Positions 27,311 to 61,595 are shown, numbered from the stretch's first letter. The stretch is DNA of 64,000 nucleotides from Candidatus Moraniibacteriota bacterium (GCA_049303795.1 JBAQNM010000004.1:75690-139689); one strand, 5' to 3'. The notes: generated from the sequence alone by a model not told the origin. Translations and numbers: made by a program.

Positions 27311-27321
27311 GAAAATTAATC

Positions 27322-37402: not shown

Positions 37403-37412
37403 AATTGCCTCC

Positions 37413-38018: not shown

Positions 38019-38051
38019 GTTCTGTCTCCCTGTGTGATATGTTTACATTGT

Positions 38052-39338: not shown

Positions 39339-39344
39339 CCTCCA

Positions 39345-41324: not shown

Positions 41325-42432
41325 TGTAGGTATATTTTATTGTGTCTTTAAAGGCAGCGAAGTCACCATTCTTATCCATGAGTTGTCGTAAATAATGTGG
41401 CAACAGCATGTAATGGTGAATTTGCGAGGCCTTCTTTTCATAGCATTCCAGATCTGTTTCCGGGATATAAAATATTTCCCGAAGTTGGCCCAGAGAAAAC
41501 GGGCTCTTCGATCTTTTTTGTTCTTGCGAAATAACAATCTCGTCGCAGAACGTGAAGATAAAATCGTCAGGGCTCTCTGCGTTTTGAACCAACAGGTTGT
41601 GAAGCGCATAAGGATCTCTTGAAAACGATTTTGTACAAATCGGTCCCAACATAATCCGTTTGATTGATTTCGGGTGAATGTCCTTCAAGTTTTGATCAAT
41701 TCCCATTGCCATTATGCCGATAGGCGGAACCCGAGAACCTTCAGCCTGGACAATTTCCAGAAACTTATCGTAATTGGGTCCTTTTTCTGTCAATGAGTTA
41801 GCCTCCTGATCCTGGTCGAACGCCATAATACAAATGTTGGGTTTATTGCTGGCAAAATCATAGCCAGCCCAACTGAAAATGTAATGGCGAAATTCTTCAC
41901 TTTCTCCTGTCAGAATTAAATTCCCGGGAATGAAAGTAAGGAAGATACTGGGATCAAGTTTTTCGAAAAAATATCTCTGACCAAGTTGCGCCAGAATTTC
42001 CGGAGATTCTTCCTGCTGCTTAAACATGAAATCAAGCAAACCACTTTTCAAATTAACAAGAGATGGCAGTTCATTTAATTTTTGTTCACGCATTCTGAGG
42101 TCCACCTCCAGAGCACCAATTTCCTGATAACTGGGAAACCCAGAATCAGAAAGATCAACGATTAGCGTATGCTCGGGATCGTAGGTATATTTCCGTCGAA
42201 GCGCTCGGATAGTTCCGAGCAATTTTTCCAGAAAACCTGTAACGATTCCCGGTTCGTAATTTTTTCGTCCCGATTCCACTGCCTGGCATTGAAAAACGGC
42301 CAAGAGCATTTGAAAAATGGAATATAATTGATTGAAATACTGGGCATATTCATCCCTGTTTTTAAGCTTTTCCAGTTTAAACTGGGATAATCCTTCATTC
42401 CAGACATCTTGACCTGTGCCATTTTTATTCAT
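41254..42432 (-). CDS. Island protein 5: hypothetical protein (392 aa)
   Basis: Long ORF. Weak similarity to island protein 3. Confidence 0.5.
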   Translation of the reverse strand: MNKNGTGQDVWNEGLSQFKLEKLKNRDEYAQYFNQLYSIFQMLLAVFQCQAVESGRKNYEPGIVTGFLEKLLGTIRALRRKYTYDPEHTLIVDLSDSGFPSYQEIGALEVDLRMREQKLNELPSLVNLKSGLLDFMFKQQEESPEILAQLGQRYFFEKLDPSIFLTFIPGNLILTGESEEFRHYIFSWAGYDFASNKPNICIMAFDQDQEANSLTEKGPNYDKFLEIVQAEGSRVPPIGIMAMGIDQNLKDIHPKSIKRIMLGPICTKSFSRDPYALHNLLVQNAESPDDFIFTFCDEIVISQEQKRSKSPFSLGQLREIFYIPETDLECYEKKASQIHHYMLLPHYLRQLMDKNGDFAAFKDTIKYTYNEENIYAGKNHCSLSADKRTRFE

Positions 42433-42511
42433 GTCAGTTCATCCTTTCTCTGTAAAAATGGGCAGGCTTTTTGGGCCTGCCCGGTTTTGGTTGATTTGTT
42501 GAAGCCGGTTG

Positions 42512-43870
42512 CTAATTAGCGCCCGGTTGATTATCCGGTTGATCTTCGACGTAACGAAAATACGATGTCGAAAGTGGATCAATAAGATATTTCTCCTTAA
42601 ACAACTGCCTGGCCTTGTCTTCCCGAAGGCGGATTTGTTGGATTGCCTCTGCTTGAGCAGCTGCGGCCTTAATAACCTTGGCTACCCGATCAGGCTGATT
42701 TTCCACTTTTTGCATCCGGACATTATCGCTCGCAGCGCCAGCACTGGCCATATATTCTACATTTGATTGGTCGATGGCTGCGCCCATATCGTCCAGTTGC
42801 TTGGCAATATCCTGATCAGACATCGCCTTCATCGCTTCCAGCCTGGACTTAAACGTGACCACCCTTTCCTGGGTGTCCGAACGCAGTGCCGTAATCCACA
42901 TTATGTGGTTATCCCGCAACTTCATCTGGGTACGTTCGTGCACCTGGAGCTCTTCGGCGAATTTTTCTTTCGATTGAAAGAGAATCAGTGCCGTGTTTCT
43001 GCGGCCCCTGATATCTTCCACCTCCGACCGAAGGTTTGAAACTTTTGTGTCCTGAGCGGCGTACTCAGGACTTCCATTAAGAAAAGTGCCGAACATCTCT
43101 TCTTCTGTTTGCAGTTCGGCTTCTTTCTCCTGGAGTTGCTGATCCAGGGCCTCTAATGCCCTGGCCGCCTCTTCTTTGATCCGGAATGCTTCTGCTTTTC
43201 GGGTTTGAACGGCCACCAGTTGTTTTTCAATGGCTTCTTTTCTTTTCTCCATGATTCCAATGGTCTGTTCGACCTTATATTGGAAATCTTGGAGAGATTC
43301 TTCCATATTTTTGGTTTGCAGTCGACGACGAGCCCGCCGTTTGGCTTCAGCTTTGGCATCTTCAATACCTTGCTTGGCATTTGTGATTGCCTGATTCGCC
43401 TGGGCAATAGCCTTTTCGCGTCGGTGCAAAAAATTCCACTTCTGGCCAGCTTCTTCGAGTTTAACATTGGCACTTCCGAGTTTGGCTTCCGCGTCGGTGA
43501 CCAGCTTCAATTCCTCGGCATTGGGTCTCATGAGAACTGCATATTCAGCTCCCATCGATTCCAAAATTGCGTTGAGCCCGAAGACCGCATTGGCCAGATC
43601 CGCTTCTTCTTCCTTGATCGATTCCCGTAAAGAAGCAAAATCAGCCTTAAGTACTTTCATTCGGATGTCACGCTCGTGCTTATCCTTAATCTGCTCAGCT
43701 TGTTCGAACTTCGCTTTCAGTTCGTCAAGCTTGGTGTCGAGGTTTCTTTGCGCCGGTTTTTCCAGGGTTTGGATCGATGCCTCGGTATCTTTGAGAAGAT
43801 TCTGAAGCATATCCATTGATACGCCTGCTACTCCGCCTTGTCCTGTGGTCGTTCCTACATAATCATTCAT
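42512..43870 (-). CDS. Island protein 6: long coiled-coil protein (~452 aa), possibly TelA/PspA-like
   Basis: Start assigned to the ATG at 43870 with SD AAAAGGAGGAAG (revcomp of 43874-43886). Sequence is dominated by heptad-like E/K/A/Q/L repeats. The family guess is tentative. Confidence 0.5.
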   Translation of the reverse strand: MNDYVGTTTGQGGVAGVSMDMLQNLLKDTEASIQTLEKPAQRNLDTKLDELKAKFEQAEQIKDKHERDIRMKVLKADFASLRESIKEEEADLANAVFGLNAILESMGAEYAVLMRPNAEELKLVTDAEAKLGSANVKLEEAGQKWNFLHRREKAIAQANQAITNAKQGIEDAKAEAKRRARRRLQTKNMEESLQDFQYKVEQTIGIMEKRKEAIEKQLVAVQTRKAEAFRIKEEAARALEALDQQLQEKEAELQTEEEMFGTFLNGSPEYAAQDTKVSNLRSEVEDIRGRRNTALILFQSKEKFAEELQVHERTQMKLRDNHIMWITALRSDTQERVVTFKSRLEAMKAMSDQDIAKQLDDMGAAIDQSNVEYMASAGAASDNVRMQKVENQPDRVAKVIKAAAAQAEAIQQIRLREDKARQLFKEKYLIDPLSTSYFRYVEDQPDNQPGAN

Positions 43871-44136
43871 CTGACTTCCTCCTTTTAGGTTATACTTCAA
43901 TAATGCACCATACATACAACTAATAATACGGGTACTCTTGCTAATAAAAACTCCTTTTATGTTTATATTATTATTCAATAGTAACTATTAGATTGTCAAT
44001 GAGCTGTAAAAAATCAGCTATTCTTCCAATTTTTCTTGGAAAAATTTATACTGATTTTTACGCTTCAATAAAGGCAATTAATAAGCCTCTGGCTAAAGCC
44101 TAAAAACCAATCACTGGATTGCTTAATATACACCAA

Positions 44137-49220: not shown

Positions 49221-50819
49221 TTATTTTTTCATTCTCACTATTGCTAACTTTATTTTTTCATAACCAATACTGGCTGGCAGCTTAGCTTTAATTGGTGACA
49301 GTTTTTCTGTGCTTCCAATTTGAGAAACTACACGCGCGATTTTTTCTTCTTCAGAGGGAGAAAGAAAATCCTCTACTTTCAATTTTCCGCCTGAGGCATA
49401 CCAATCAATCAAGTGACCATAAATTGTTCTAATGCCCAATCCCCTGATTTTGGCAATTTTTTCGACGCTATATTTTTGCTCATATAGTTTCACGGTTTCT
49501 TTGATTGTGCCGGAAATGAATCCCTTCGATTTTTCGCCTTTAACCTTCTCGAATTTTTCTTGACCTTTAGTCGCTTTCCAATTTAGACAAACATCGCATC
49601 CGCGACAATTGCTCGGATGACTTAAAAGTTCCGGGTCATTAAAATATTCTAAAATCATCGTCCTGCGACATTTTTTACTAGTGGCATATTCCACCATCTT
49701 TTCCAAGCGATCATATTTTATATTCAAAATTTTCCACATTTCTGTTTGATCCTTGCCCTGATCCTGCATTTCACCTTTGCTCATGCGAATGAAAAATTTG
49801 TGCGTGTTAACATCTTTTTTAGCATGAAGCAAAACACAATAAGATTTTTCACCATCTCGCCCGGCACGTCCAGCTTCTTGATAGTAGCCTTCAAGACTCC
49901 CGGGCATACCTGAGTGGATGACAAAGCGGATGTCGGCTTTATCCACACCCATCCCAAAGGCCACGGTTGCCACAATCACCTGAAATTTATTTTCCATAAA
50001 ATCTTCTTGGACTTTTTCTCTTTTTTTCGCTTCCATCCCGGCGTGATAGGCTATCGCTTTGATCCCGTTTTCTTTTAGATATTTTGCAATAACTTCCGTT
50101 TCTTTTCTGGTGAGCGAATAAACAATCCCCGCGCCGGAAAGACTTTTTATAATGCGCAAAATTTCTTCATACCTTTCTTTGGTTTTCAAATCACACTGCA
50201 CTAGAAATTTCAAATTCGGCCGGTCAAATCCACGAATGAAAACTTTGGGATTTTTGAGCTCCAATCTTTCGATAATATCATCCTTCACTTCCGTTGTAGC
50301 CGTCGCCGTGAAAGCCGCCACAATCGGACGTTTTTTCAAATTACGAATATACTTTCTAATCTCCAAATAATCCGGCCGGAAATCATGTCCCCACTGCGAA
50401 ACACAATGTGCTTCGTCCACTGAAAACAAAAAAATGTCTAGCTCGGAAAAAAGTTTTTGAAATTGAGCATTACCAAAACGCTCAGGGGCAACATACAAAA
50501 TCTTGATTTGTCCGGTTTTTATTTTGACAATATTTTCCTGAATTTCTTCAAAGGTTAGTGAGCTATTGATAAAAACCGCCGGAATTCCTCGAGCATTGAG
50601 CGCATCCACCTGATCTTTCATCAGAGCAATCAGTGGAGAAATAACCACCGATAATTTATCCGCGATTATTGATGGCAACTGATAGCACAAGGATTTTCCC
50701 CCACCCGTTGGCATCAACGCAACTGTGTCATGCCCATTCATGATAGCTTCCACAATTTCTTTTTGCCCTGGACGAAACTGCGAAAAGTTAAAATATTTTT
50801 GTAAATTTTTTTCGAGCAT
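49221..50819 (-). CDS. recQ: ATP-dependent DNA helicase RecQ
   Basis: FRPGQKEIVEAIMNGHDTVALMPTGGGKSLCYQLP, DEAH box (FSVDEAHCVSQWGHDFR), Zn-binding Cys cluster and HRDC-like C-terminus. Start taken at the Met of MLEKNLQKYF. Confidence 0.85.
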   Translation of the reverse strand: MLEKNLQKYFNFSQFRPGQKEIVEAIMNGHDTVALMPTGGGKSLCYQLPSIIADKLSVVISPLIALMKDQVDALNARGIPAVFINSSLTFEEIQENIVKIKTGQIKILYVAPERFGNAQFQKLFSELDIFLFSVDEAHCVSQWGHDFRPDYLEIRKYIRNLKKRPIVAAFTATATTEVKDDIIERLELKNPKVFIRGFDRPNLKFLVQCDLKTKERYEEILRIIKSLSGAGIVYSLTRKETEVIAKYLKENGIKAIAYHAGMEAKKREKVQEDFMENKFQVIVATVAFGMGVDKADIRFVIHSGMPGSLEGYYQEAGRAGRDGEKSYCVLLHAKKDVNTHKFFIRMSKGEMQDQGKDQTEMWKILNIKYDRLEKMVEYATSKKCRRTMILEYFNDPELLSHPSNCRGCDVCLNWKATKGQEKFEKVKGEKSKGFISGTIKETVKLYEQKYSVEKIAKIRGLGIRTIYGHLIDWYASGGKLKVEDFLSPSEEEKIARVVSQIGSTEKLSPIKAKLPASIGYEKIKLAIVRMKK

Positions 50820-50839
50820 TGGTGTTTTTAAATTAACCT

Positions 50840-51832
50840 TTAAAATCCATTTATTCTTACTGATGTTCGTGCGCCACATCGAGTAATTTCAAAATTAGGA
50901 TCTTTTCTTTCAAGTTTTACCATCTTATTGCCCAGAATAGATCTGCTATATAAAATATAAGCATCATCAACAAGATATACGCCTAATTGGAATGAACCTT
51001 GTTGGCAATCAATAACTTGATCGTTTTTTTCCATATAACACAAAAATTCAACTATCCATTCTTCTGGAGTTTGACCAGATTCTCCTTGATATTGCTTTTC
51101 AGTTTGAATTAATTTTAGATATTTTTTTGGAGCATCATGTATTTCTAATTGTTTTCGACCATTAATTATTTTGCCTTTACCTTCTTCAGGCATATTCATA
51201 TCACCCTCTCTAAAAATAATTAAATAACCGGGAATTGATTTTTGAGCGTTAATAAGTTGTTTTTTTGTTTTCCCTTGATGATTTTCATAAGAGAAACCAT
51301 TAACATCATAAACTAACTCGTTTTTCTCATCAGCGTTAGCATACATTTCATTAATATAAACTGGCTCATTTATGTCCAAATCAAAAGGCATCAGTTCCTC
51401 AATTTTACTTTCTTTATTCCTTTTAACATAAAATAACTTTCCTTCTTTATGATGTTTGAGCAATTGCCTTTTGAGTGTTTCGATGAGCTTACTTAACGGC
51501 ATCGCAAACGGTACAATCTCAAGCTCTGTAAATCCTTGTTTCATCTTAGTTTCAAACATTTCTTTGTTTTTTAAGATGGCAGTTCTAATTTCATTCATCG
51601 TGGGCAGATCATAAGTTTGACCATCAATACCCAGAATTCTCATTTTGACATCCGTTCCGTCTATTTGAGTTTCATTGTTTTCATCAATCCAAGTTCTTGG
51701 CATGGGAGAAATTAATCCTAATTGATTGAGAATCTTAGCTTTATCTTCATACTGATTTTTCAGTTCTAAAGACAGCCATCTTTCTAGGGTGGATGGTTCT
51801 TGAGATTCTGGGTTGGGGAATTCGTGGGACAT
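50840..51832 (-). CDS. Paralogous family protein A (330 aa), unknown function
   Basis: N-terminal ~125 aa about 80% identical to 51861-52853 and 56025-57020 (STLERWLSLELKNQYE.KAKILNQLG.ISPMPRTWIDENNETQIDGTDVKMRI.GIDGQTYDLP). The C-terminal half is diverged; the C-terminus is GARTSVRINGF. Confidence 0.55.
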   Translation of the reverse strand: MSHEFPNPESQEPSTLERWLSLELKNQYEDKAKILNQLGLISPMPRTWIDENNETQIDGTDVKMRILGIDGQTYDLPTMNEIRTAILKNKEMFETKMKQGFTELEIVPFAMPLSKLIETLKRQLLKHHKEGKLFYVKRNKESKIEELMPFDLDINEPVYINEMYANADEKNELVYDVNGFSYENHQGKTKKQLINAQKSIPGYLIIFREGDMNMPEEGKGKIINGRKQLEIHDAPKKYLKLIQTEKQYQGESGQTPEEWIVEFLCYMEKNDQVIDCQQGSFQLGVYLVDDAYILYSRSILGNKMVKLERKDPNFEITRCGARTSVRINGF

Positions 51833-51860
51833 AGTTATTTTTTAAATATAAAAACTAGAT

Positions 51861-52853
51861 TTATAATACTCTTACGGACGAACGCGCACCATTGCCCTCA
51901 AACTGAAACCCCGGATTATTCCGATACAAGAAGGCCTGATGATTGTCTTGGTGCCAGCTAGTTGATGGAACAGCGACAGAAAGCGGGAAAAACCCACCCA
52001 ACTGGAAAGAAGCCTTGCTATTTCCCTGATAGTCATCGATTACTTGATTATGTTTTTCCAATGTAGTTAGAAATTTAGTAATCCATTCTTCCGGAGTTTG
52101 ACCTTGTTCATTTTGATACGCCCTTCCCGTTCTTAGAAACATTAGATAGTCATCAGGAGAAATATTAGCTTCCAACCTCTCCCTCCCGCTAATTACTTCC
52201 CCATGATTTCCTCTTGGAATATTCGGATTTTTTTCATTGAGCGTAATAATAAAACCTTTTTTACTTTCTTTTAAAATTTCTTTTTTGGTTTTTCCTTGAT
52301 GATTGTCTCTGATGAATTTTTTGGGATAATAGACTATCGTTCCTTCAGTGTCAGCATTATCATAACCTTCCCATTTGTTGATTGGGCCGCTTTCATCTAA
52401 TTCCAGTTTTTGCAGTGGTTCATTCTCATCATCAATGTTTTTCTTAGCCGTGAATAGCTTTCCCTCCTTATGATGTTTTAGAATAGTTCTTTCCATTGTT
52501 TTGATAAGCTGATCAAGTGGCATCGCGAAAGGTATGATGTTTAAATCAGTAAACCCTTGCTCCATCTTTTTTTCAAACATTTCTTTGTTTTCTAGAATGG
52601 CAGTTCTAATTTCATTCATCGTGGGCAGATCATAAGTTTGACCATCAATTCCCATAATTCTCATTTTAACATCCGTTCCGTCTATTTGAGTTTCATTATT
52701 TTCATCGATCCAAGTTCTAGGCATGGGAGAAATAATTCCAAGTTGATTGAGAATTTTGGCTTTAGATTCATATTGATTTTTCAGTTCTAAAGATAGCCAT
52801 CTTTCTAGGGTGGATAGTTCTTGAGATTCTGTTTTGGGAAATTCGTGGGACAT
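51861..52853 (-). CDS. Paralogous family protein B (330 aa), unknown function
   Basis: As for A; C-terminus GARSSVRVL. Confidence 0.55.
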   Translation of the reverse strand: MSHEFPKTESQELSTLERWLSLELKNQYESKAKILNQLGIISPMPRTWIDENNETQIDGTDVKMRIMGIDGQTYDLPTMNEIRTAILENKEMFEKKMEQGFTDLNIIPFAMPLDQLIKTMERTILKHHKEGKLFTAKKNIDDENEPLQKLELDESGPINKWEGYDNADTEGTIVYYPKKFIRDNHQGKTKKEILKESKKGFIITLNEKNPNIPRGNHGEVISGRERLEANISPDDYLMFLRTGRAYQNEQGQTPEEWITKFLTTLEKHNQVIDDYQGNSKASFQLGGFFPLSVAVPSTSWHQDNHQAFLYRNNPGFQFEGNGARSSVRVL

Positions 52854-52874
52854 AGAATTTTATCGCTAATTATT

Positions 52875-55800
52875 TTATTCTAAACTTTTGTGCCAAACAT
52901 GTTTTTCATAGAAATGAGGCTTGTTCAAATCTTCACCAGTATTAAGATCGTCATAAATTTTTGATTCCGGATCGCCAGAATTGTCATCCAATGCTCTCAG
53001 GCGAATCAGTTCAATTTGCTCATCCGTGTATTCTTCCGGCAAGTTTCCTTTTCCTATTGATCCGCCATGTTGTTCGGCAATGGCAATTGTTTTTATCGGA
53101 AGTCCTCTGAATATTTTTTCCACTCCAGTAAGAATTGCTTCAACTTGATCTTGGTCTTCCACGCCAGGAGCATAATAAATTCCATTAAGCAAAATTGCCA
53201 ATTTTCCTTCTTCATCAATTCCAAAACTTCCAAAAATGAAACCTAGATTTTCTTTGGCTTGTTTTTTTTGCTCCCCTTCTTGACTGGCTATCTCCGGCTC
53301 TTCTAGCGAAACAACGAAAGAAAGTGGATCGGCATTGATTGAAGCTACCCAATATTTGTTTTGAGTTTGAAACTGAATAGTCTGCTCATAATTAATGCTG
53401 GAAAAGCAACAGATTTTACTATCAGCAAAACGAACCATATTCATAAATCTTTCCGTCTTATCTAGATATTGCAAATTTAAAAGTTTGCGCTTTCGCATAT
53501 CTCCACCAATTGGTCTTTGGTAAGTTTTTGAATCGGTAATCGCCCGAAAAGGTCCCTGGAGATGACTTTCCATTTCCTGAATCAAATGCACATCGCTCTC
53601 CCTGAAACGTTCTTCACCCAAGGCTTGCATGGTGATGTAGGTGAAAATTGCGCTAGGCGATTTTTCTGTTAAGGCTAAAATTTCATTGCCCAGTTTTTCA
53701 ATTTCCGCTTCTTTTTCTTCCTTGCTCAAATGAGCAAATCTTTCTTGAATTTTTTCATCACCCAAAAGGCTTTTTTCTTTATCCAGCTCTTTCAATTCTT
53801 CTTCGATTTTCTGGATTTTTTCTTCCAGCTCTTTTTTGACACTTGCATTTTCTTGATTTTCTAGACCCTTCAAAAGATTGTTTCGCGCTTTTCTTTTTTT
53901 GTAAATATTTTTTTGGATGTTCGATTCTTTTTCATTTACACCTTTCAATATAACCAGCAACTCTTTTTTGATTTTTTTAAGATCGAGACGTTTCACGTCT
54001 AGTTTCGGCAAAATTTCTTCACCTCTCACTGGCACTGAATTTTCTGAAAAAACTTGGGCAAGCGAAACATCCAATACCATCTTTTCTCCCAAAGCTCTCC
54101 AAGTATCTTTCATCTCTACGTGCGCTCTTTCCCGAAATCCGGGAAAACCAGCTTCGATTTCATCTATCAGAGCCAAGCGATCGACAAAAGTTTGCGCGCC
54201 TTTCATTTTTTCGATTAAATTTTCATTCTTATCTTCTTCTAAATATTCACGATAAAACGGGAAAAGAAAAATAACGCCAAGTTGTCTGCGACCAAGTACT
54301 TGTCCAAGTTCCCGATTAGCATTCTCGACCAAGGCATTCTCTCGAACATCAAAACTAACTTCTTGCGAAGCTTGCTCTTTCGGCAAAGGAAATTTTCCTT
54401 GCCTTAGATTTTCAATTATTTTTTCCGCTTCTTCTTCCGTAATTCCATTTTCAATCAATGATTGCTTGAATTTTCTAATCGGTTTTTCGTGTATTTTCAA
54501 ATTATCAATCAATCCAATCATTTCTTTAAATTTATCAAAACCATAGTTGTTAATTAAGTTGAAACGATCATCTCCACCGTGAAGCAGATAATAAATCATA
54601 GCGTCATTTTCATTTTCGGAAAGTTTTTCTACCAGTTCGCGATTATTCTCTATCCCAGAAAACATCTCTTGACTCGCTTTTATTTTTTCAATTCTTTCCA
54701 CGAGTGGCGCGTCTTTCCATTTTTTGTCATTAGAGATAAAATTCAAAATTTCACGACTAGGCACTACACCTAAATCAGTGATAACACTTTTGACTATTTC
54801 CAGCGATTGCATTTCAGCTTCCACGCCATCTTTACACTTAGCCTTTTCTTCACTCCACCAAGTTTTGAGGTCTTGGGAAAGATAATTATTGTCAATTAAT
54901 TTTCCAAGGAGATAGACTGACAAATGACGATTGAGCTTTCTGTCTCCAGCCAATTTAAGTGCAATGTCATTCCCCCGCCAATCCTCAAAATTCTCCAAGA
55001 AAACCTTGAGAATTCTAGATAGATAATCTTGTTCTTTCTTTTCTTTTCCTTCTCCTTCTTCATCTCGAATAAGCTCTAGTAGCAATTGTCGGGAATCCTC
55101 ACCCAAACTGCCCAGAGCCTCACTCAAAAGTATGACAATTTGTTCGTCATTTTTTTCGCCTTTTGCAACTGTATCACGCAGTTCCTTATGCAGTCGCAAC
55201 CGCACATTTCTTCTTTGCACCTCTTCAAGACTCTTACTTTCAACAATTGATTGATGCAGAAATCTTGAAGTTGAAACATCAAAAATTTGTGAGATTATTT
55301 TTTTCTTTTCCTTAGGAATCAGATCCAGAAACTTGACCCTTTCCGCTTCAGGCAAAACCAAAGCATAACTTTCCAATAACTTAGCATCATTCAAAATCTC
55401 CTGAGCAATTCTCTCTTTTTCCGGCAGTGGCAATTTCTTTATTCGACGAAATTGGATTCCTAAAAGCGTTGCATCAGCAAAAAAACTAGCGGGTGTATCT
55501 TTGGGAATATCCTTGGATTTCTCTGTACATTCAGAGGCAGATTTCAATTCATCATCAAAATCCTCTCCGCATTGTTCTTTGGCTTTCGCGGATTGAGAAT
55601 ATAGATAAGCGGAAAAATTGGGAAACAAATTCTCATTTTCGCTAGCTTCATTGGAAAAATTTTCTGATTTTTTCTTCAAATCTTCTTTTGAATCTCCACT
55701 CTCTTTCCATTCTCCCTTAGCTTCCTGAAAAACGAGATTGAGTATTTTTTCCCAAGCGCGAAGCATCGCCTCATTGCCTGCTGGTTTTGACAAATTAAGC

Positions 55801-55940
55801 ATTTCGATTTTGAACCGTTGGCCTCTCTTTCGAAAATCAGCCCGCGCTTCAATCGAACGTTTTTCCTCCACGCTCAAAATTTCCGCTGGAGTTTCTTTTT
55901 TAGGAAAAAGTCTATTTATTTTTTGCTCAAATTTTAGCAT
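52875..55940 (-). CDS. Large hypothetical protein (1021 aa), charged/helical, unknown function
   Basis: Uninterrupted 3 kb ORF between paralogues B and C. No recognisable catalytic motif. Confidence 0.55.
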   Translation of the reverse strand: MLKFEQKINRLFPKKETPAEILSVEEKRSIEARADFRKRGQRFKIEMLNLSKPAGNEAMLRAWEKILNLVFQEAKGEWKESGDSKEDLKKKSENFSNEASENENLFPNFSAYLYSQSAKAKEQCGEDFDDELKSASECTEKSKDIPKDTPASFFADATLLGIQFRRIKKLPLPEKERIAQEILNDAKLLESYALVLPEAERVKFLDLIPKEKKKIISQIFDVSTSRFLHQSIVESKSLEEVQRRNVRLRLHKELRDTVAKGEKNDEQIVILLSEALGSLGEDSRQLLLELIRDEEGEGKEKKEQDYLSRILKVFLENFEDWRGNDIALKLAGDRKLNRHLSVYLLGKLIDNNYLSQDLKTWWSEEKAKCKDGVEAEMQSLEIVKSVITDLGVVPSREILNFISNDKKWKDAPLVERIEKIKASQEMFSGIENNRELVEKLSENENDAMIYYLLHGGDDRFNLINNYGFDKFKEMIGLIDNLKIHEKPIRKFKQSLIENGITEEEAEKIIENLRQGKFPLPKEQASQEVSFDVRENALVENANRELGQVLGRRQLGVIFLFPFYREYLEEDKNENLIEKMKGAQTFVDRLALIDEIEAGFPGFRERAHVEMKDTWRALGEKMVLDVSLAQVFSENSVPVRGEEILPKLDVKRLDLKKIKKELLVILKGVNEKESNIQKNIYKKRKARNNLLKGLENQENASVKKELEEKIQKIEEELKELDKEKSLLGDEKIQERFAHLSKEEKEAEIEKLGNEILALTEKSPSAIFTYITMQALGEERFRESDVHLIQEMESHLQGPFRAITDSKTYQRPIGGDMRKRKLLNLQYLDKTERFMNMVRFADSKICCFSSINYEQTIQFQTQNKYWVASINADPLSFVVSLEEPEIASQEGEQKKQAKENLGFIFGSFGIDEEGKLAILLNGIYYAPGVEDQDQVEAILTGVEKIFRGLPIKTIAIAEQHGGSIGKGNLPEEYTDEQIELIRLRALDDNSGDPESKIYDDLNTGEDLNKPHFYEKHVWHKSLE

Positions 55941-56024
55941 ATTATTTCAAAATTCGATTTAACTATTTTTTTATTTTTTATATTAAATTTTAAATCTAAG
56001 TTCTAATCTGCCAAAAAACAAAAA

Positions 56025-57020
56025 TCATAAAACCCTCACGGACGAACGCGCGCCATAGTCCCCATTCCGATACTCAGGATCGTACCTACCAAAATTGGCC
56101 CGCCGACCGGCGCGGAACCAGTAAGCATTCGGGACATTGCCAGAAAATGGAAAATATGCACCCAGTTGAAAAGAAGCTTTGCCGTTCCCCCTATAACCAT
56201 CAATCACTTGATTATACTTTTCCAACGTAGTCAGAAATTTAGCAATCCATTCTTCTGGAATTTGTCCTTGCTCGTTTTGGTATTGCGCTTCTGTCTGAAG
56301 CATTTCTAAGTAATCATTTGATGCTTTATTAGCTTCCAATCTTTTTCTCTCACCAATAATTTCATTTTGGTTTTCTTTTGGTATATTGGGATTTTTTTCA
56401 TTGAATGTAACAATAAAACCTTTTTTGGTTTTTTCAAGAATTTCTTTTTTAGTTTGGCCTTGATGATTGTCTCTGATGAATTTTTTGGGATAATAGACTA
56501 TTTTTCCTTCAGTGTCAGCGTTATCATAACCTTCCCATTTGTTAACTGGTTCACTCCCTAATTCTAATGGCTCTAACTTTTCATTTTCATCATCAATATT
56601 TTTCTTGAGCGTAAACAGTTTTCCTTCTTTGTGATGTTTAATCAAAGTTCTTTCCATTGTTTTAATAAGTTGATCAAGTGGCATGGCAAAAGGAATGATG
56701 TTTAAATCAGTAAATCCTTGCTTCATCTTTTTTTCAAACATTTCTTTGTTTTCCAGGATAGCAGTTTTGATTTCTTCCATTCTGGGTAAATCATAAGTTT
56801 GACCGTCAATTCCCAGAATTCTCATTTTGACATCCGTTCCATCAATTTGAGTTTCATTATTTTCATCAATCCAAGTTCTGGGCATTGGAGAGATAATCCC
56901 GAGTTGATTGAGAATTTTAGCTTTAGATTCATATTGATTTTTCAGTTCTAAAGACAGCCATCTTTCTAGGGTGGATTCTTGTTCATGGGATTTGATTGTT
57001 GGAGGAGTTTCGGGGAACAT
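56025..57020 (-). CDS. Paralogous family protein C (331 aa), unknown function
   Basis: As for A and B; C-terminus GARSSVRVL. Confidence 0.55.
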   Translation of the reverse strand: MFPETPPTIKSHEQESTLERWLSLELKNQYESKAKILNQLGIISPMPRTWIDENNETQIDGTDVKMRILGIDGQTYDLPRMEEIKTAILENKEMFEKKMKQGFTDLNIIPFAMPLDQLIKTMERTLIKHHKEGKLFTLKKNIDDENEKLEPLELGSEPVNKWEGYDNADTEGKIVYYPKKFIRDNHQGQTKKEILEKTKKGFIVTFNEKNPNIPKENQNEIIGERKRLEANKASNDYLEMLQTEAQYQNEQGQIPEEWIAKFLTTLEKYNQVIDGYRGNGKASFQLGAYFPFSGNVPNAYWFRAGRRANFGRYDPEYRNGDYGARSSVRVL

Positions 57021-57101: not shown

Positions 57102-60100
57102 CTAATCCTTAATCACTACCGCACCTTTATCACTTTTTAATTTCTTAAATAAAACATATTTTGTTCCATTGTAATAACGACAGAAATTATTAGAAATAAT
57201 TTCTTCTTTGGGAATTTCTTCAATTCTTCGTCCTTTTTTCAAGCTTTCCGCTTCGGCAATTATCGCCTGTTCTTCTTCCAAAATTCGTTGATCTGTTTCG
57301 TTCAGTTTGATTGGATAATCCTTCCCATTTAAATTAAACTCGCTAATAATCTTGCGCGTATCTTTGAGACTGACTTTACCGGATTTTTTTTCTGAAAATT
57401 TAAACCACTTAATATTTTCCCTACCAATTTCTTCTATCATATCATCAAAATCAATTTCCAGATCTTCCACTTTTTTTATTGTCAAAATTTTTGCTTTATA
57501 ATTATTTCCGGAGGAAATTTCTCCGCTTTCATTTTCCACTATTTCAAATCCCAATTTCCTAAGGTTTTCAAAAAAACCGGCGGATTTTTTATAATCAAAA
57601 GAATAATCAAAAATAATCGCCACACGCCCATCTTTTTTTAAAACTCCATTCAACTCATAGAAAATTTTGGCTCTTTCATAATCTTCATTTTTGATCACTA
57701 AGCTTGATTCCTGAATTGCCAAATTGAGCGTAGCATAATCAAATGTTTTTTCTTTGAATGGCAAATTAGCAAAACTGCCTGCCACTGCCTTTCCTGAAAC
57801 CGCCTTAGCAAAATGATGAGCATTGAGATCAAGACTAAAAATATTTTTTTGCATTTCCACGCTAGAATGTTTGTATAAAAGTTCCGGTCCGCTAGCTAAA
57901 TCAATGACTTGCATTTTCCCGCCATTTTTTCCAGCCCCTTTCGACATGCGCTCTATAATTGATGCGCTCACTCTGGCAGTATTGGCCTGATAACTGCGTG
58001 CGCCCAATTCCTTATAGCACTCGGCATAACTTTCACCGTGCTGAAGTAGAAAATCAGAAAAATTTTTCTCTCCGATTTCTTTGGTATAGCCAAACATGCG
58101 CATTAATCTTTCCCAGGAGGAAAAATAATATTCGGCAAATTCGGCGTTAACTTCCAAACTGGAATCAAATTGTTTTTCATCTTTTTCTAGCATGGCTTTT
58201 TCCGCTTCGCTAATCGGAACTCCGGAGATTAATTTTTCAATCGCTCTTTCTTTAGTTCGAATATAACTATAAATTCCTTCTTCGATAGAATTAGAAGTGA
58301 CCATTGTCACGGCTGACAAATCATGTTTGAGGCCTTCGCGATAAGCGCGACCGATTTGTTGTTTTTTATCATAAATTGTCCAAGGTTCGTTATAATGAAT
58401 AACTTTATCTGCACCGGAAAAATCCACGCCAACATCCGCTGTGTCACCACTGACAAATAATACCATCTTCCCTTCGCCATTATTAAACTCATTTTGAATA
58501 TTCGTTCTTTGAGCGCGATCATCCTTGCCATGGATAGTTCGCACTACGACATTTTGTGGCAAATCAAGTTTAGGAATAATATTTTTTTCTCCCCGAATAA
58601 CATTTTCCACGTAGTCATTCACAAAAACAACAATCCTATCATTCACTGCCAAGGATTCATGCAACTCATCTTTGAGCGCAGAAATTTTACTGCCTTCAAT
58701 TTTTTCCGGAGCGGTAATATCCAGCATTTCCGGATTAAGCAAAAACTGGCGCATAATCTGAATTTTTTGCATCGCTGTCAATTCGTCTTCTTCGAGCAAT
58801 GTTTCATAGAGTTCTTTTTCCAACTCTGTCATTTCGATTCTTCTTTCTTCCACCAGAAACTCAGGCATGGCGATACTTTCCGCCAATTGTTTTTTCTGCA
58901 TTCGCGGAATAAGCAGATTTCGTAAATCAAGCATTTCGCCTCTGATGATTCTTTGCGATAACGTTTCGTTTTCCACCTCTTGATTCCCCACGTAAAATTT
59001 TTCCGGATAAAGCAATTTAAGAATCATCGCCACATCACTCACCTTGTTTGGCACCGGAGTACCAGAAAGAAGCGCTAGATATTCTTCCTCGCCTTGAATT
59101 TTTTGCGCCAATCTTTCCACATTTTCAAAACGCACGCCTTTGATATTTTTTATTTTATGCGCCTCATCCACAATCAACATATCAAAACCAGAATTTTCCA
59201 AAGAAGCTACATATTCATCTTTCATTTTTTCCTGAGAAATTAAAATGTAGTCAAACGGCTTATTTAATTTTTCAAGATCATCCAAAGATTTAATTATTAG
59301 AACTCTCGGAGCCAATCCCTTCTGAAAATATCCGTCTTTTTCATCGGACAAATATTTTTCCCACGTATCTTCGACATTACTTGGAACAATGATCAAGGCT
59401 TTTTTGAGTCCCAAATATTCCTTAGCCAAAATAACTGACGCACTTTTTCCCAGCCCCATCTCATCGGCAATCAACATTTTCTTTTTTTCTTTTATTTCTT
59501 GAATATTAACTAGCTGATTGATGTCCGGAAAAGTTCTTCCATGTTTTAGACTTTCCAAAATGCAATCTGGCTTTTTAAGATCGAGCAGAGAAAAATAATA
59601 GCCTTCCGCCTCAGTTATAATTTCCCAAAGCTCATCATCCTCTAAGCTCAACACTTCACTGCCCAATCTATCCAGCACTATTTTTATCAGTTGTCGAATA
59701 TCATCAATCTGGGCCTTTTTTTGCTCCTTTTGACAATCAGCCAAAATTCTTTCTTTTACTACTTCGAGTAGAGCGCTTTTGAAATCCGGATTGGATAGCA
59801 GTTCTTTACACGGCTCAAAAGTTGTCCAGTCGAGTGGTCTTTTTTGCATGGCGACTTCTCCCAAATATTCTGCCAGCTCACCATTTATATAATCCATTGG
59901 AATGCCTTTGAAATTTGGATGAAAATGTAAAAGGATATCTGTCATACGCGAAGAGCCAAAAAACGCCATCGCTTGTTCAATTTTTTTTGCATCAACCTTG
60001 CCTTCGCTAAGATTTTTCAAATATTCACTTAGCTCAATTCTATTCTCCTCAGATTTTCTTCTTTCCGCACCGACATTCACTCTTTTTATTTCCGGAAAAG

Positions 60101-61565
60101 CAAGGTTGATAAGATTGATCATGTTTTCAAGATTATCTTTTTTTGTACCAAAATTTTTAAGAAGTGTTCCACCCTTTCTCTTTTCAAGTCCGCTATCAGC
60201 ACCAAAGATTGTTTTTCGAAATTCTCCACTATCACAAAAACGTAAATCGATTGAAGAATTTTCTAACAATTTCTTGAGATGCTTCGGATTAGTATAGTCA
60301 AATTTTTCACGAACGATACCTATAGAATTTAGTAGAGCAATCATATTCTCAGCATCTGCATTTCCTGTGCCAAAATTTTTAAGAAGCACATGACCCACTC
60401 TTTTTTCAAATACACTGTCAACGCCAAAGGTTGCTTTTTGAAATTCTGTTGAGCCACAATTAGTTAGATCGATTGGCGAAGCATCAAACAATTTTTTAAG
60501 GTGTCCTAGATTTGAATAATCAAATTTTTCTCGAGCAATTCCAACAAAATTTAAAAGTGCAATCATATTATCAAAATCTACAACTTTCGTTCCGAAATTT
60601 CTAAGCAATGTCGTGCCTTTTCTTTCTTTAAATCTGCTACCAATACCAAAAGTTGCTTTTCCGAAATCACTAAAGCTACAAGAGATTAAATCAACTGGAG
60701 AATAGCTAAACATTTCTTTTAAATTTTCCAGATCAGCATATCCACATTCTAACTTTTTTTGCTTACAAGCAATTCCAGCAAAACTTAGAAGTGCAATCAT
60801 ATTGCTAGTGTTTACTTTTTTTGTACCAAAATTTTTAAGAAGTGCTGTGCCATTTTTCTTTTCAAATCTACTATTAGCACCAAATACTCCCTCCTGAAAT
60901 TCCACTAACCCGCAGGCAGTTAAATCAATTGTGGATTCTTTAAATAACTCACTAAGCTGCTCCGCGTTAGAGTAATCACATTCTGGCTTTTTTTGTTCAC
61001 GAGTGATTCCGACAAAATTTAAAAAAGCGACCATATTTTTAATATCTGCAACTCTTGTCCCAAAATTTTTAAGAAATGAATAGCCTCCTCTTTTTTCAAA
61101 TCTACTCTTGGCGCCAAAGGTTGCTCTCTGAAATTCACTACTGCCACAAGTCAATAAATCAATTGGTGAGTCCTGAAACATTTCTCGTAAATGCTCTGGG
61201 TTGGAATAACTACATTCTGGTTTTTTTTGCTCGCGAGCAATTCCGACAAAATTTAAAAGAGCGACCATATTGCTAAAATCTTGTTTTTTTGTACCAAAAT
61301 TATTAAGCAACGTTGCGCCTATCCTTTCTTTGAATTTATTATTAACGCCAAAGGTCGTTTCTGTAAATTCTCGCGCGCTGCAAATTGCCAAATCGATTGG
61401 CGAATCCTTTAGCATTTCTCGCAAGTGCTCTGGATTAGAATAATCGAGTTTTTCTTCAACTTCTTGTTTTTCTTTATTTTTTTCTTCAGCACAAATCTGA
61501 CAACTCATTTTCGGATTGCCATGCGCACACAATTGACTTGGGTTTGGAAATTTAAATTCGGACAT
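57102..61565 (-). CDS. Multidomain protein: six ~75 aa tandem repeats, SNF2-family helicase, and C-terminal SAM-methyltransferase-like domain (~1488 aa)
   Basis: SNF2 motifs: LIADEMGLGKSASVILAKEY (motif I), LIVDEAHKIKN (DEAH box), LLSGTPVPNKVSDV, and helicase-C ...IGRAYREG. C-terminal KMQVIDLASGPELL and GVLKKDGRVAIIFDY resemble methyltransferase motif I and a post-I motif. Start taken at the ATG at 61565. Confidence 0.7.
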   Translation of the reverse strand: MSEFKFPNPSQLCAHGNPKMSCQICAEEKNKEKQEVEEKLDYSNPEHLREMLKDSPIDLAICSAREFTETTFGVNNKFKERIGATLLNNFGTKKQDFSNMVALLNFVGIAREQKKPECSYSNPEHLREMFQDSPIDLLTCGSSEFQRATFGAKSRFEKRGGYSFLKNFGTRVADIKNMVAFLNFVGITREQKKPECDYSNAEQLSELFKESTIDLTACGLVEFQEGVFGANSRFEKKNGTALLKNFGTKKVNTSNMIALLSFAGIACKQKKLECGYADLENLKEMFSYSPVDLISCSFSDFGKATFGIGSRFKERKGTTLLRNFGTKVVDFDNMIALLNFVGIAREKFDYSNLGHLKKLFDASPIDLTNCGSTEFQKATFGVDSVFEKRVGHVLLKNFGTGNADAENMIALLNSIGIVREKFDYTNPKHLKKLLENSSIDLRFCDSGEFRKTIFGADSGLEKRKGGTLLKNFGTKKDNLENMINLINLAFPEIKRVNVGAERRKSEENRIELSEYLKNLSEGKVDAKKIEQAMAFFGSSRMTDILLHFHPNFKGIPMDYINGELAEYLGEVAMQKRPLDWTTFEPCKELLSNPDFKSALLEVVKERILADCQKEQKKAQIDDIRQLIKIVLDRLGSEVLSLEDDELWEIITEAEGYYFSLLDLKKPDCILESLKHGRTFPDINQLVNIQEIKEKKKMLIADEMGLGKSASVILAKEYLGLKKALIIVPSNVEDTWEKYLSDEKDGYFQKGLAPRVLIIKSLDDLEKLNKPFDYILISQEKMKDEYVASLENSGFDMLIVDEAHKIKNIKGVRFENVERLAQKIQGEEEYLALLSGTPVPNKVSDVAMILKLLYPEKFYVGNQEVENETLSQRIIRGEMLDLRNLLIPRMQKKQLAESIAMPEFLVEERRIEMTELEKELYETLLEEDELTAMQKIQIMRQFLLNPEMLDITAPEKIEGSKISALKDELHESLAVNDRIVVFVNDYVENVIRGEKNIIPKLDLPQNVVVRTIHGKDDRAQRTNIQNEFNNGEGKMVLFVSGDTADVGVDFSGADKVIHYNEPWTIYDKKQQIGRAYREGLKHDLSAVTMVTSNSIEEGIYSYIRTKERAIEKLISGVPISEAEKAMLEKDEKQFDSSLEVNAEFAEYYFSSWERLMRMFGYTKEIGEKNFSDFLLQHGESYAECYKELGARSYQANTARVSASIIERMSKGAGKNGGKMQVIDLASGPELLYKHSSVEMQKNIFSLDLNAHHFAKAVSGKAVAGSFANLPFKEKTFDYATLNLAIQESSLVIKNEDYERAKIFYELNGVLKKDGRVAIIFDYSFDYKKSAGFFENLRKLGFEIVENESGEISSGNNYKAKILTIKKVEDLEIDFDDMIEEIGRENIKWFKFSEKKSGKVSLKDTRKIISEFNLNGKDYPIKLNETDQRILEEEQAIIAEAESLKKGRRIEEIPKEEIISNNFCRYYNGTKYVLFKKLKSDKGAVVIKD
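60125..61450. repeat. Six tandem ~225 bp (75 aa) coding repeats at the 5' end of the SNF2/MTase gene
   Basis: Protein repeat consensus YSNPEHL.E.F.DSPIDL..C...EF..ATFG..SRFEKR.G..LLKNFGTK..D..NMIALLNFVGIAREQ. The DNA copies are recognisably similar but not identical, and in frame. Confidence 0.75.
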
Positions 61566-61595
61566 AAGTTTTATTTTCCCCTTCCATTGTAACAC

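What the first reader, a model, noticed from the sequence alone, without database searches (positions are those of the whole stretch)
50840..57020. Three paralogues with conserved N-terminal half and hypervariable C-terminal half, ~90% nt identity at 5' ends
A (50840-51832), B (51861-52853) and C (56025-57020) share STLERWLSLELKNQYE.KAKILNQLG.ISPMPRTWIDENNETQIDGTDVKMRI.GIDGQTYDLP.M.EI.TAIL.NKEMFE.KM.QGF..L.I.PFAMPL..LI.T..R.L.KHHKEGKLF almost exactly. After about residue 130 they diverge strongly, then re-converge at ASFQLG and at the C-terminal GAR[ST]SV. The 5' nucleotide sequences of A and B are nearly identical (ccatctttctagggtggat.gttcttgagattctg...aattcgtgggacat). This is recent duplication followed by accelerated divergence of one module, as seen for specificity, immunity or toxin-antitoxin-like subunits.
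Basis: seen in the sequence. Interest (0 to 1): 0.6.

Follow-up and report, generated by a model that had tools for sequence, protein, structure and literature searches.

The report
Orphaned retroelement-diversified protein paralogues, recombined
The three look-alike genes belong to a large, uncharacterised protein family of ultra-small (CPR) bacteria whose last ~40 amino acids are rewritten by a diversity-generating retroelement in relatives, but here the retroelement is missing and the shared front ends come from gene conversion, not from fast evolution of the back halves.

Summary
Three paralogues lie on the minus strand: A 50840-51832, B 51861-52853, C 56025-57020.

- **Family.** About 970 clusters at 50% identity, seen only in Patescibacteria among named hits, with no Pfam or PDB match.
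- **DGR target in relatives.** In at least 15 related loci the last ~115 nt has a template repeat just downstream, then Avd and a DGR-type reverse transcriptase. Nearly all template-to-gene mismatches sit at template adenines.
- **B and C.** They differ at 25/32 template-adenine positions against 14/73 others (p=1e-8).
- **No machinery here.** The window has no template repeat, Avd or RT. Each of B and C is one invariant sequence in four MAGs. The ~1021-aa gene that follows the RT in relatives sits 84 nt after C.
- **The "conserved N-terminal half".** This is a gene-conversion tract of ~100 codons. It is 88-95% nt identical, has low dS, and carries a 14-aa insertion absent from the 14 closest homologues.
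- **Beyond codon 100.** A belongs to a different subfamily from B and C, which match foreign orthologues as well as each other.
- **Selection.** dN/dS stays below 1 from codon 19 on. A's variable region has decayed.

Function is unknown. This is a new member of a known kind.

The parts
50840..51832 (-). Paralogue A (330 aa). A chimera. Its N-terminal ~100 codons are shared with B and C. The rest belongs to subfamily 2 (P0014-16-like). The region equivalent to the variable region has decayed.
   Evidence: ORF. Family HMM E 1e-120. The trees place residues 135-284 with P0014-16 at 100% bootstrap. There is no adenine-position bias against B, C or the template repeats.
51861..52853 (-). Paralogue B (330 aa), subfamily 1 body with an A-type N-terminus. 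Identical to NCBI protein WAV31_01445 (Candidatus Moraniibacteriota).
   Evidence: AlphaFold model: pLDDT 95.6, pTM 0.92. No Foldseek match in PDB or BFVD.
56025..57020 (-). Paralogue C (331 aa), subfamily 1 body with an A-type N-terminus. Identical to WAV31_01435.
   Evidence: Its middle region is 81% identical to foreign P0005, against 74% to B.
51870..51983 (-). DGR-type variable region (VR) of B, about codons 291-328. It ends in the GC-rich segment TGGTGCGCGTTCGTCCGT.
   Evidence: Aligns with the template repeats of 16 related loci. B and C differ at 25/32 template-adenine positions against 14/73 others, p=1.4e-8. At 12 AAY-equivalent codons they differ at positions 1/2/3 in 10/10/3 cases.
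56034..56147 (-). DGR-type variable region of C, about codons 292-329. Its 3' flank GTGAGGGTTTTATGATTT is nearly identical to the VR flank of the active locus L006.
50855..50968 (-). Decayed region of A equivalent to the VR. The scaffold residues VP, W, R..RxAxL are lost. Only G-A-R-T-S-V-R is kept, at protein level.
   Evidence: 53-56% of the non-adenine positions also differ.
51533..51832 (-). 5' gene-conversion tract in A, codons 1 to ~100.
   Evidence: 88-95% nt identity to B over the first 300 nt, then 68%. pS is 0.27 here against 0.68-0.83 downstream. The 14-aa insertion is shared.
52554..52853 (-). 5' gene-conversion tract in B, codons 1 to ~100.
56712..57020 (-). 5' gene-conversion tract in C, codons 1 to ~103. 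The first ~13 codons differ.
52875..55940 (-). Gene for a 1021-aa protein conserved and uncharacterised in CPR bacteria. In relatives it follows the DGR reverse transcriptase and overlaps its 3' end. The model is a helical solenoid (residues 1-810) plus an alpha/beta C-terminal domain.
   Evidence: Homologues lie next to family members in L004, L006, L070, L125, L067, L118, L151 and L152. 56 homologues, none with a Pfam domain. Model pLDDT 82. Foldseek gives only weak ARM/HEAT-like and GNAT-like matches, E 0.3-1.5.
55941..56024 (.). 84-nt spacer between C and the 1021-aa gene. In relatives the ~1.5-1.9 kb block of template repeat, Avd and RT occupies this position. It is absent here.
   Evidence: Cassette order in L006, L070, L125 and L151. 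No RT, Avd or template-repeat match anywhere in the window.

Best explanation
A, B and C are members of a large protein family, apparently specific to CPR/Patescibacteria. Its C-terminal ~38 codons are the variable region (VR) of a diversity-generating retroelement (DGR).

**How the cassette works in relatives**

The gene order is: target gene, template repeat (TR) 150-300 nt downstream, Avd on the opposite strand, RT, and often a ~1021-aa protein gene. The RT copies the TR RNA with errors at adenines. The cDNA then replaces the VR. This rewrites about 12-15 Asn (AAY) codons.

**What the window holds**

The window holds the target genes and the 1021-aa gene, but not the TR-Avd-RT block.
- B and C carry VRs whose mutual differences have the DGR signature.
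- They are most likely remote or orphaned targets. They were diversified in the past and are now static. This step is inferred.
- A is a member of a second subfamily whose VR has decayed.

**Why the front ends look alike**

The striking N-terminal identity comes from gene conversion of the first ~100 codons among the three copies. Conversion placed an A-type N-terminus with a unique 14-aa insertion onto the subfamily-1 bodies of B and C.

**Proposed function (inferred, not shown)**
- The variable C-terminus is a ligand-binding surface.
- The N-terminal module, uniform within a genome, docks the paralogues to a common partner, plausibly the 1021-aa helical protein.
- None of the three has an N-terminal hydrophobic segment, so they are probably intracellular.
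For: **The DGR in relatives is shown**
- L006: 16-18 TR-to-VR mismatches, all at TR adenines. The TR peptide is rich in Asn.
- 15 further TR/VR pairs are strongly adenine-biased, most of them almost exclusively: L067 24/24, L070 18/18, L081 15/15, L134 21/22; weakest L088 22/34 and L103 15/20.
- The RT carries the IGNLTSQIFANIYLNEFD and YLRYGDDF motifs, and Avd is adjacent.
- Natural variants within 90%-identity clusters differ at 0-2 positions in residues 1-280, with one outlier at 7, and at more than 15 positions inside the VR.
- In L151 the two targets have VR pS 0.03 and pN 0.22.

**The signature in the window is shown**
- B and C differ at 25/32 adenine positions against 14/73 others.
- At AAY-equivalent codons they differ at positions 1/2/3 in 10/10/3 of 12 cases. 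The third base is still a pyrimidine in 11/12 (B) and 12/12 (C).

**No machinery in the window**
- No RT, Avd or TR in the window, in ~9 kb (9.4 kb) beyond its high end, or in ~3 kb beyond its low end.

**Static**
- B and C are each one exact sequence in 4 MAGs.

**Gene conversion**
-.

**Link to the 1021-aa gene**
-.

**Literature**
- CPR DGR targets are known to lack recognisable domains, and recombination of target modules has been proposed (PMC8144416).
Against: - No cognate TR or RT was found for this genome, so the DGR history of B and C rests on proxy TRs from species only 57-64% identical.
- The four MAGs that carry identical B and C may be near-clonal samples. Their invariance is therefore weak evidence of inactivity.
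- The docking-module idea has no direct evidence. In L152 the N-terminal conservation persists although synonymous sites are saturated. Purifying selection alone can therefore produce part of the pattern.
Confidence: 0.75

Rival explanations
1. B and C are still being diversified, in trans, by a DGR (TR-Avd-RT) located elsewhere in the same genome. Remote targets are known for DGRs.
For: - C keeps the GC-rich VR end and a 3' flank almost identical to those of active loci.
- In L006 and L134, copies 4-6 kb from the TR are diversified.
- Only 13 of 62 evaluable family members have a TR directly downstream, so remote copies are the norm.
- The contig is 187 kb, and only about 77 kb of it was inspected.
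Against: - B and C each occur as one exact sequence in four MAGs. DGR-linked relatives show 5-7 VR variants per 90% cluster.
- B and C differ at 19% of non-adenine VR positions, and their 3' flanks differ. This suggests long drift since any common templating.
- No RT with a Moraniibacteriota name appeared among the top 120 RT hits, though this is inconclusive.
Confidence: 0.25
2. A recent triplication was followed by accelerated, selection-driven divergence of the C-terminal half, as in specificity or immunity subunits.
For: - Divergence is strongly non-uniform along the length.
- pN/pS rises to about 0.7 in the last 40 codons of B against C.
Against: - dN/dS is 0.05-0.3 across the N-terminal and middle regions, and dS itself is 2-5 times lower in the 5' part.
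- In the middle region B and C are as close to foreign proteins as to each other, and A sits in another subfamily with 100% bootstrap.
- A 14-aa insertion is shared across the subfamilies only in this genome.
Confidence: 0.05
3. The N-terminal similarity comes from strong purifying selection and co-evolution with a genome-specific partner, without gene conversion.
For: - In L152, seven tandem paralogues keep 55-92% N-terminal identity with saturated synonymous sites.
- Between genomes the N-terminal part is less conserved than the middle: 58-61% against 66-73%. This fits partner co-evolution.
Against: - Synonymous divergence drops in the window's 5' tract: pS 0.27-0.40 against 0.63-0.71.
- Nucleotide identity steps sharply at nt ~300.
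- The identical 14-aa insertion occurs in paralogues of two subfamilies.
- The permutation test gives p=2e-4.
Confidence: 0.12
4. The genes are immunity or toxin-associated proteins of a polymorphic toxin system, SUKH-like, and are unrelated to DGRs in this genome.
For: - Weak SMI1/KNR4 (SUKH-1) Pfam hits in 8 of 85 members, best E 0.003.
- Tandem paralogue arrays occur (window, L152).
Against: - The hits are below Pfam thresholds.
- Foldseek finds no SUKH structure.
- There is no adjacent toxin-like gene and no PADLOC hit.
- The DGR linkage of the family is direct.
Confidence: 0.04

Closest known systems
DGR variable (target) proteins of CPR/Patescibacteria: DGR clade 2 of Roux et al. 2021 (PMC8144416); first surveyed by Paul et al. 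2017 (not readable here)
   Same: - The VR lies at the C-terminus, with a TR just downstream, Avd, and an RT with the DGR motifs.
- Mismatches are adenine-specific.
- There is no recognisable transmembrane or functional domain.
- The hosts are CPR bacteria from groundwater and sediment.
   Different: - The window's three copies have no TR, Avd or RT within reach.
- One copy, A, has lost the VR scaffold.
- The copies are chimeras made by N-terminal gene conversion.
- I could not check whether this exact family is one of the published target clusters.
Bordetella phage BPP-1 Mtd / Treponema TvpA type DGR targets (C-type lectin fold VR)
   Same: - The VR is about 115-135 nt long, is built on AAY codons, and ends in a GC-rich conserved segment.
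- From my own recollection, the VR motif W..R..RxAxL....P.......G[AF]R..[AV]R resembles the FGE-type CLec VR.
   Different: - Foldseek against the PDB, which holds Mtd and TvpA, gave no match with E below 0.7 for a model with pLDDT 95.6.
- No FGE-sulfatase Pfam hit appeared in 85 members.
DGR-diversified putative antigen sensors linked to MoxR-like AAA ATPases in multicellular bacteria (Dore et al. 2024, PMC10907252)
   Same: - Both are apparently cytoplasmic DGR targets.
- Several targets occur per locus, including short ones.
- Some members of this family are fused to an N-terminal AAA_5 (MoxR-like) domain: P0324, P0326, P0366, P0394.
   Different: - No vWA, VMAP, peptidase or TIR partners were seen.
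- The conserved partner here is a 1021-aa helical protein of unknown function.
- The hosts are CPR bacteria, and no conflict-system function is shown.
Concerted evolution / segmental gene conversion in paralogous surface or receptor gene families (general phenomenon)
   Same: - There is a sharp identity step.
- dS is reduced in the tract.
- Trees are incongruent on the two sides of the breakpoint.
   Different: The converted part here is the constant N-terminal module of a DGR target. The variable part is supplied by a different mechanism.

Membership tests
DGR target (variable protein) | A template repeat homologous to the 3' end of the gene is present in the same genome | tested here: not met
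   No TR-like copy lies in the 64-kb window or in ~12 kb of flanks, by blastn, nhmmer and the family HMM. The feature is met in 16 related loci. The rest of the genome could not be searched; the genome-contig scan returned only chance hits.
DGR target (variable protein) | VR differences are confined to template adenines | tested here: met
   **Relatives:** 14-24 mismatches per pair, almost all at adenines.

**Window, using the three closest TRs as proxy:** B and C differ at 25/32 adenine positions against 14/73 non-adenine positions, p=1.4e-8. At AAY codons, positions 1/2/3 differ in 10/10/3 of 12 cases. A fails this test.
DGR target (variable protein) | A DGR-type reverse transcriptase and the accessory protein Avd are nearby | tested here: not met
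   The window and its flanks give no hit to the RT profile or to Avd. The feature is met in 19 related loci.
DGR target (variable protein) | A conserved GC-rich element lies at the 3' end of the VR (IMH-like) | tested here: met
   B and C end in TGG(T/C)GCGCGTTCGTCCGT, in a genome of 36% GC. TR_L067 has TGGCGCGCGTTCGTCCGC. Its function as an IMH is inferred, not tested.
DGR target (variable protein) | The VR lies in a C-type lectin fold domain | tested here: inconclusive
DGR target (variable protein) | Ongoing diversification: VR variants exist in populations | tested here: not met
   B and C are each one exact sequence in 4 MAGs. The feature is met for relatives P0010 (7 variants) and P0013 (5 variants).
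Gene-conversion tract (concerted evolution of paralogues) | Phylogenetic incongruence across a breakpoint, with reduced synonymous divergence inside the tract | tested here: met
   - Residues 14-100: A, B and C form one clade, 100% bootstrap.
- Residues 135-284: A groups with P0014-16 at 100%; an A-B-C clade has 0% support.
- pS is 0.27-0.40 inside the tract against 0.63-0.71 beyond it.
- The run test for A-B gives p=2e-4.
- The 14-aa insertion is shared.
Polymorphic toxin immunity proteins (SUKH superfamily) | Significant match to a SUKH profile or fold, and an adjacent toxin gene | tested here: not met
   Hits are below threshold only, best E 0.003 in 8 of 85 members. There is no structural hit and no toxin-like neighbour.
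Known anti-phage defence systems (PADLOC) | Match of A, B, C or the 1021-aa protein to a defence-system model | tested here: not met
   None of the four proteins has a hit. Only the neighbouring SNF2-methyltransferase protein matches generic SNF2 helicase models such as ZorD, DpdE and DrmD.

The most novel reading that the evidence does not exclude
This family, together with the conserved 1021-aa helical protein, forms a previously undescribed intracellular recognition system specific to CPR bacteria.

- Several paralogous "receptors" share a genome-uniform N-terminal docking module, kept uniform by gene conversion.
- Each carries a different DGR-written C-terminal binding surface, on a fold that is not a recognisable C-type lectin.
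- All dock onto one large scaffold or enzyme, possibly with a GNAT-like domain.
- The AAA_5-fused variants are the single-chain version of the same system.
- The window would then show a repertoire "frozen" after the loss of the retroelement.
Probability: 0.2. Interest if true: 0.75.

Novelty: new member of a known kind. Interest (0 to 1): 0.5.

Why it matters
- **A functional label.** The analysis assigns one, DGR variable protein, to a family of about 970 sequence clusters that is annotated only as "hypothetical" in CPR genomes.
- **Steep N-to-C divergence gradients can mislead.** In paralogues such a gradient can arise from conversion of the conserved end rather than from fast evolution of the divergent end.
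- **Where the targeted hypermutation is.** It is confined to ~38 codons.
- **A new gene link.** A conserved 1021-aa gene is linked to this DGR type. No Pfam, PHROG, NCBIfam or PADLOC model and none of the DGR papers I could read covers it. It is a concrete candidate partner for experiments on what DGR targets do in episymbiotic ultra-small bacteria.
- **An apparent endpoint.** The window itself seems to document target genes that outlived their retroelement.

Tried and rejected
**Searches that found nothing**
- Pfam, PADLOC, NCBIfam, PHROGs and PDB sequence searches on A, B, C and the 1021-aa protein gave nothing significant.
- Foldseek of the B model against PDB and BFVD had no match below E 0.5.
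- Foldseek of the 1021-aa model found only weak solenoid and GNAT-like matches.

**Tools unavailable or papers not held**
- Paul et al. 2017 could not be read.

**Attempts to find the cognate DGR of this genome**
- blastn, nhmmer and tblastn of the window and flanks found nothing.
- A scan of GTDB representative genomes for the VR-end 18-mer returned 60 chance hits in GC-rich genomes, so the genome is not in that set.
- An RT profile search returned 3038 CPR RTs, none recognisably from this MAG in the top 120, so it was uninformative.
- Extending the contig with edge proteins added ~9 kb (9.4 kb) on one side and ~3 kb on the other, with no RT.

**Readings rejected**
- Positive selection on the C-terminal half: dN/dS is below 1 there.
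- Recent whole-gene triplication: the trees are incongruent.
- The first attempt at search for related loci failed because the alignment was too diverse. It worked with a 17-sequence subset.


Full report
**1. The observation**

The window carries three intact ORFs on the minus strand at exactly the reported coordinates: A 50840-51832 (330 aa), B 51861-52853 (330 aa) and C 56025-57020 (331 aa).

The minus-strand gene order is:
- a 1497-aa SNF2 helicase-methyltransferase fusion;
- C;
- a 1021-aa ORF;
- B;
- A;
- RecQ.

The proteins align end to end.
- Over alignment columns 19-140 they are 85-94% identical.
- A drops to 42-45% against B and C in the middle, and to about 31-33% at the end.
- B and C stay 74% identical through the middle and fall to 32-41% only in the last ~40 residues.
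- Nucleotide identity between A and B is 88-95% for the first 300 nt. It then steps down to 68% and then to about 50%.

However, the break is near residue 100, and only the extreme C-terminus is unusually variable between B and C.

**2. Selection analysis does not support "accelerated divergence"**

Nei-Gojobori estimates give these values:

| Region | dN/dS |
|---|---|
| N-terminal part | 0.05-0.17 |
| Middle | 0.1-0.3 |
| Last ~50 codons | at most ~0.5 |

- dS is itself heterogeneous. It is 0.2-0.6 in the first 80 codons and saturated (above 1.4) further on.
- Low synonymous divergence confined to one end points to homogenisation of that end.

**3. What the proteins are**

- A, B and C have no significant hit in Pfam, PADLOC, NCBIfam, PHROGs or PDB sequences.
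- A profile search found 106 homologues. All are unnamed or "hypothetical". Every hit that carries an organism name comes from Patescibacteria (Moraniibacteria, Wolfebacteria, Nealsonbacteria), often with several per contig.
- B and C are identical to NCBI proteins WAV31_01445 and WAV31_01435 of a Candidatus Moraniibacteriota MAG.
- An exhaustive HMM search counts 967 clusters at 50% identity with E<=1e-3.
- AlphaFold gives a very confident model of B (pLDDT 95.6, pTM 0.92).
- Foldseek finds nothing similar in PDB or BFVD.

**4. The family is a DGR target**

*Locus L006.* Two family members flank a homologue of the 1021-aa gene together with an RT, a bAvd gene and a short non-coding copy of the family's 3' end.
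- That copy encodes an Asn-rich peptide, NSSDNVPNCNWNRDNQQANLNRNNPRNQNENNGARFSAR.
- It differs from the two gene copies at 18 and 16 positions, all of them adenines in the short copy.
- This is the defining signature of a diversity-generating retroelement: template repeat (TR) to variable region (VR).

*Metagenome survey.* A survey of 80 metagenome loci found the same arrangement repeatedly.
- 16 loci carry a TR 150-300 nt downstream of a full-length member. In most pairs nearly all mismatches fall at adenines.
- Examples: L067 24/24, L070 18/18, L081 15/15, L101 17/17, L134 21/22. The weakest are L088 22/34 and L103 15/20.
- Avd lies on the opposite strand. The RT bears the DGR motifs IGNLTSQIFANIYLNEFD and YLRYGDDF.

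*Natural variants.* Variants inside 90%-identity clusters of two DGR-linked relatives differ at 0-2 positions in residues 1-280. One P0013-cluster member differs at 7. They differ at more than 15 positions within residues ~282-310.

*Locus L151.* The two targets have VR pS 0.03 against pN 0.22.

*Literature.* Published surveys already report that CPR genomes are rich in DGRs whose targets lack recognisable domains (PMC8144416).

**5. The window's copies**

*No DGR machinery.*
- No TR, RT or Avd exists in the window.
- None exists in the ~9 kb (9.4 kb) beyond its high end or the ~3 kb beyond its low end.

*B and C still carry the imprint.*
- The three closest TRs were used as proxy. B and C differ at 25 of 32 positions that are adenine in all three TRs. 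They differ at only 14 of 73 positions that are adenine in none (Fisher p=1.4e-8).
- At the 12 AAY-equivalent codons they differ at codon positions 1/2/3 in 10/10/3 cases. The third base is still a pyrimidine in 11/12 (B) and 12/12 (C). Ordinary drift at relaxed codons would hit third positions at least as often.
- Both end in the GC-rich TGGYGCGCGTTCGTCCGT that is also the TR end in L067.

*A shows no adenine bias* and has lost the conserved VR scaffold residues.

*B and C are invariant.* Each occurs as one exact sequence in four MAGs. This contrasts with the multi-variant clusters of DGR-linked relatives. The four MAGs may be closely related samples, so this is suggestive only.

*Copies without a local DGR are common in the family.*
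- Only 13 of 62 evaluable members have a TR directly downstream.
- Only 7 of 23 loci of at least 8 kb contain an RT.

**6. The 1021-aa neighbour**

- Homologues of the 1021-aa ORF (52875-55940) occur next to family members in L004, L006, L067/68, L070, L118, L125, L151 and L152.
- In the DGR-bearing loci the gene starts inside the 3' end of the RT gene.
- In a 770-kb contig (L151) the order is: target, TR, Avd (opposite strand), RT, 1035-aa gene, second target (convergent).
- In the window, C is followed after only 84 nt by the 1021-aa gene. This is the cassette with the TR-Avd-RT block missing.
- The protein family has 56 homologues, all CPR where named, and none has a Pfam domain.
- It is modelled as a long helical solenoid plus an alpha/beta C-terminal domain (pLDDT 82).
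- Foldseek gives only weak ARM/HEAT-like and GNAT-like similarities, E 0.3-1.5. Its role is unknown.

**7. Origin of the conserved N-terminus**

*Identity comparisons.*
- In residues 135-284, B and C are 66-81% identical to proteins from other genomes (P0004-P0009). C is closer to P0005 (81%) than to B (74%).
- A is closest to P0014-16 (52-53%).
- In residues 14-134, A, B and C are 86-94% identical to each other but only 50-67% to anything foreign.
- All three share a 14-residue insertion (RTWIDENNETQIDGTDV region) absent from the 14 closest homologues.

*Neighbour-joining bootstraps.*

| Residues | A+B+C clade | A+P0014-16 clade | Other |
|---|---|---|---|
| 14-100 | 100% | 0% | A+B+C joined to P0014-16: 94% |
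| 101-134 | 1% | 95% | B+C: 87% |
| 135-284 | 0% | 100% | |

*Conclusion.*
- A run test on polymorphic sites gives p=2e-4 for A-B.
- The simplest reading is gene conversion of the first ~100 codons. An A-type (subfamily 2) N-terminus now sits on the subfamily-1 bodies of B and C.
- Two sister MAGs break their assemblies inside A. This fits a repeat.

*A similar but older pattern in L152.*
- Seven tandem paralogues follow the large gene there. Their N-termini are 55-92% identical, their C-terminal parts are 14-55% identical, and synonymous sites are saturated.
- So selection also keeps the N-terminal module uniform within a genome.

**8. Mechanism and function**

*Shown.*
- The DGR mechanism operates in relatives.
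- The DGR-type mutational imprint is present in B and C.
- The machinery is absent locally.
- There is a recombination breakpoint.

*Inferred.*
- B and C are remote or orphaned targets that are now static.
- The variable C-terminus is a binding surface.
- The genome-uniform N-terminal ~100 residues are a docking module for a shared partner, plausibly the 1021-aa protein.

*On localisation.*
- The proteins have no N-terminal hydrophobic segment.
- Some family members are fused to an N-terminal AAA_5/MoxR-like ATPase.
- Together these favour an intracellular role. This recalls the MoxR-linked DGR "sensor" proposals for multicellular bacteria (PMC10907252). No conflict-system partners were seen here.

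**9. Verdict**

- It is a DGR variable-protein family in a locus that has kept its targets and accessory gene but not its retroelement. Gene conversion creates the conserved 5' ends.
- In kind it is known: CPR DGR targets. The new elements are the window's particular state, the chimeric paralogues, the undetected fold and the conserved 1021-aa partner.
- Interest is moderate.

Noticed in passing
window 57102-61595 (-), repeats at 60738-61443: The neighbouring 1497-aa protein fuses an SNF2 helicase to a methyltransferase domain. It matches PHROG 62 at E 6e-56 and generic ZorD, DpdE and DrmD helicase models. Its N-terminus holds five or six tandem ~78-aa repeats (234-nt period, 72% nt identity) with the motif YSNPEHLREM...FG...F..R.G..LLKNFGTK. 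The repeats have no known domain.
   Followed up: partly
L152 8001-17946: A relative's locus has the ~1030-aa gene followed by seven tandem family paralogues. Their N-termini are conserved and their C-halves very divergent. Only two keep a DGR-type VR, and a TR follows the seventh. The array lies next to TraG-like and relaxase genes, so it may sit on a conjugative element.
   Followed up: partly
P0324, P0326, P0366, P0394 (family representatives, 745-902 aa): Some family members carry an N-terminal AAA_5 (MoxR/dynein-type) ATPase domain fused upstream of the ~310-aa family domain. Other long members (P0357, P0391, P0434, P0423, P0426) have N-terminal extensions with no Pfam match.
   Followed up: partly
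L006 14540-15551, L067 2489-3488, L070 1802-2803, L084 6454-7453: In several loci the DGR RT gene is split into two or three ORFs by a frameshift or stop. Even so, the linked targets show VR variants in nature. The cause could be assembly error, recent decay or programmed recoding.
   Followed up: no
L006 16237-16520: The second target in L006 has a 1-nt insertion near the VR 3' end. This produces an aberrant 349-aa ORF. The correct C-terminus (GARFSARVL) is readable in another frame.
   Followed up: no
window 26887-27312 (+): A tmRNA gene (Rfam RF00023, 154 bits) is the only Rfam match at gathering threshold in the 64-kb window.
   Followed up: no
window 36000-44000: A block with G+C of 43-45% stands out against ~35% elsewhere. 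It gives no rRNA match, and its content was not examined.
   Followed up: no
window 50840-50879: As listed from its first ATG, the RecQ ORF (49221-50879) overlaps the 3' end of A by 40 nt. An internal Met 20 codons downstream would remove the overlap.
   Followed up: no
sister MAGs (P0003, P0108-P0110): In two other Moraniibacteriota MAGs the assemblies break inside gene A, leaving partial proteins of 82-266 aa at contig ends. This fits assembly collapse at the ~90% identical 5' repeat shared with B.
   Followed up: partly
family alignment A3 (85 members): Weak, sub-threshold Pfam hits to SMI1/KNR4 (SUKH-1) occur in 8 of 85 members, best E 0.003. The structure search does not support them.
   Followed up: partly
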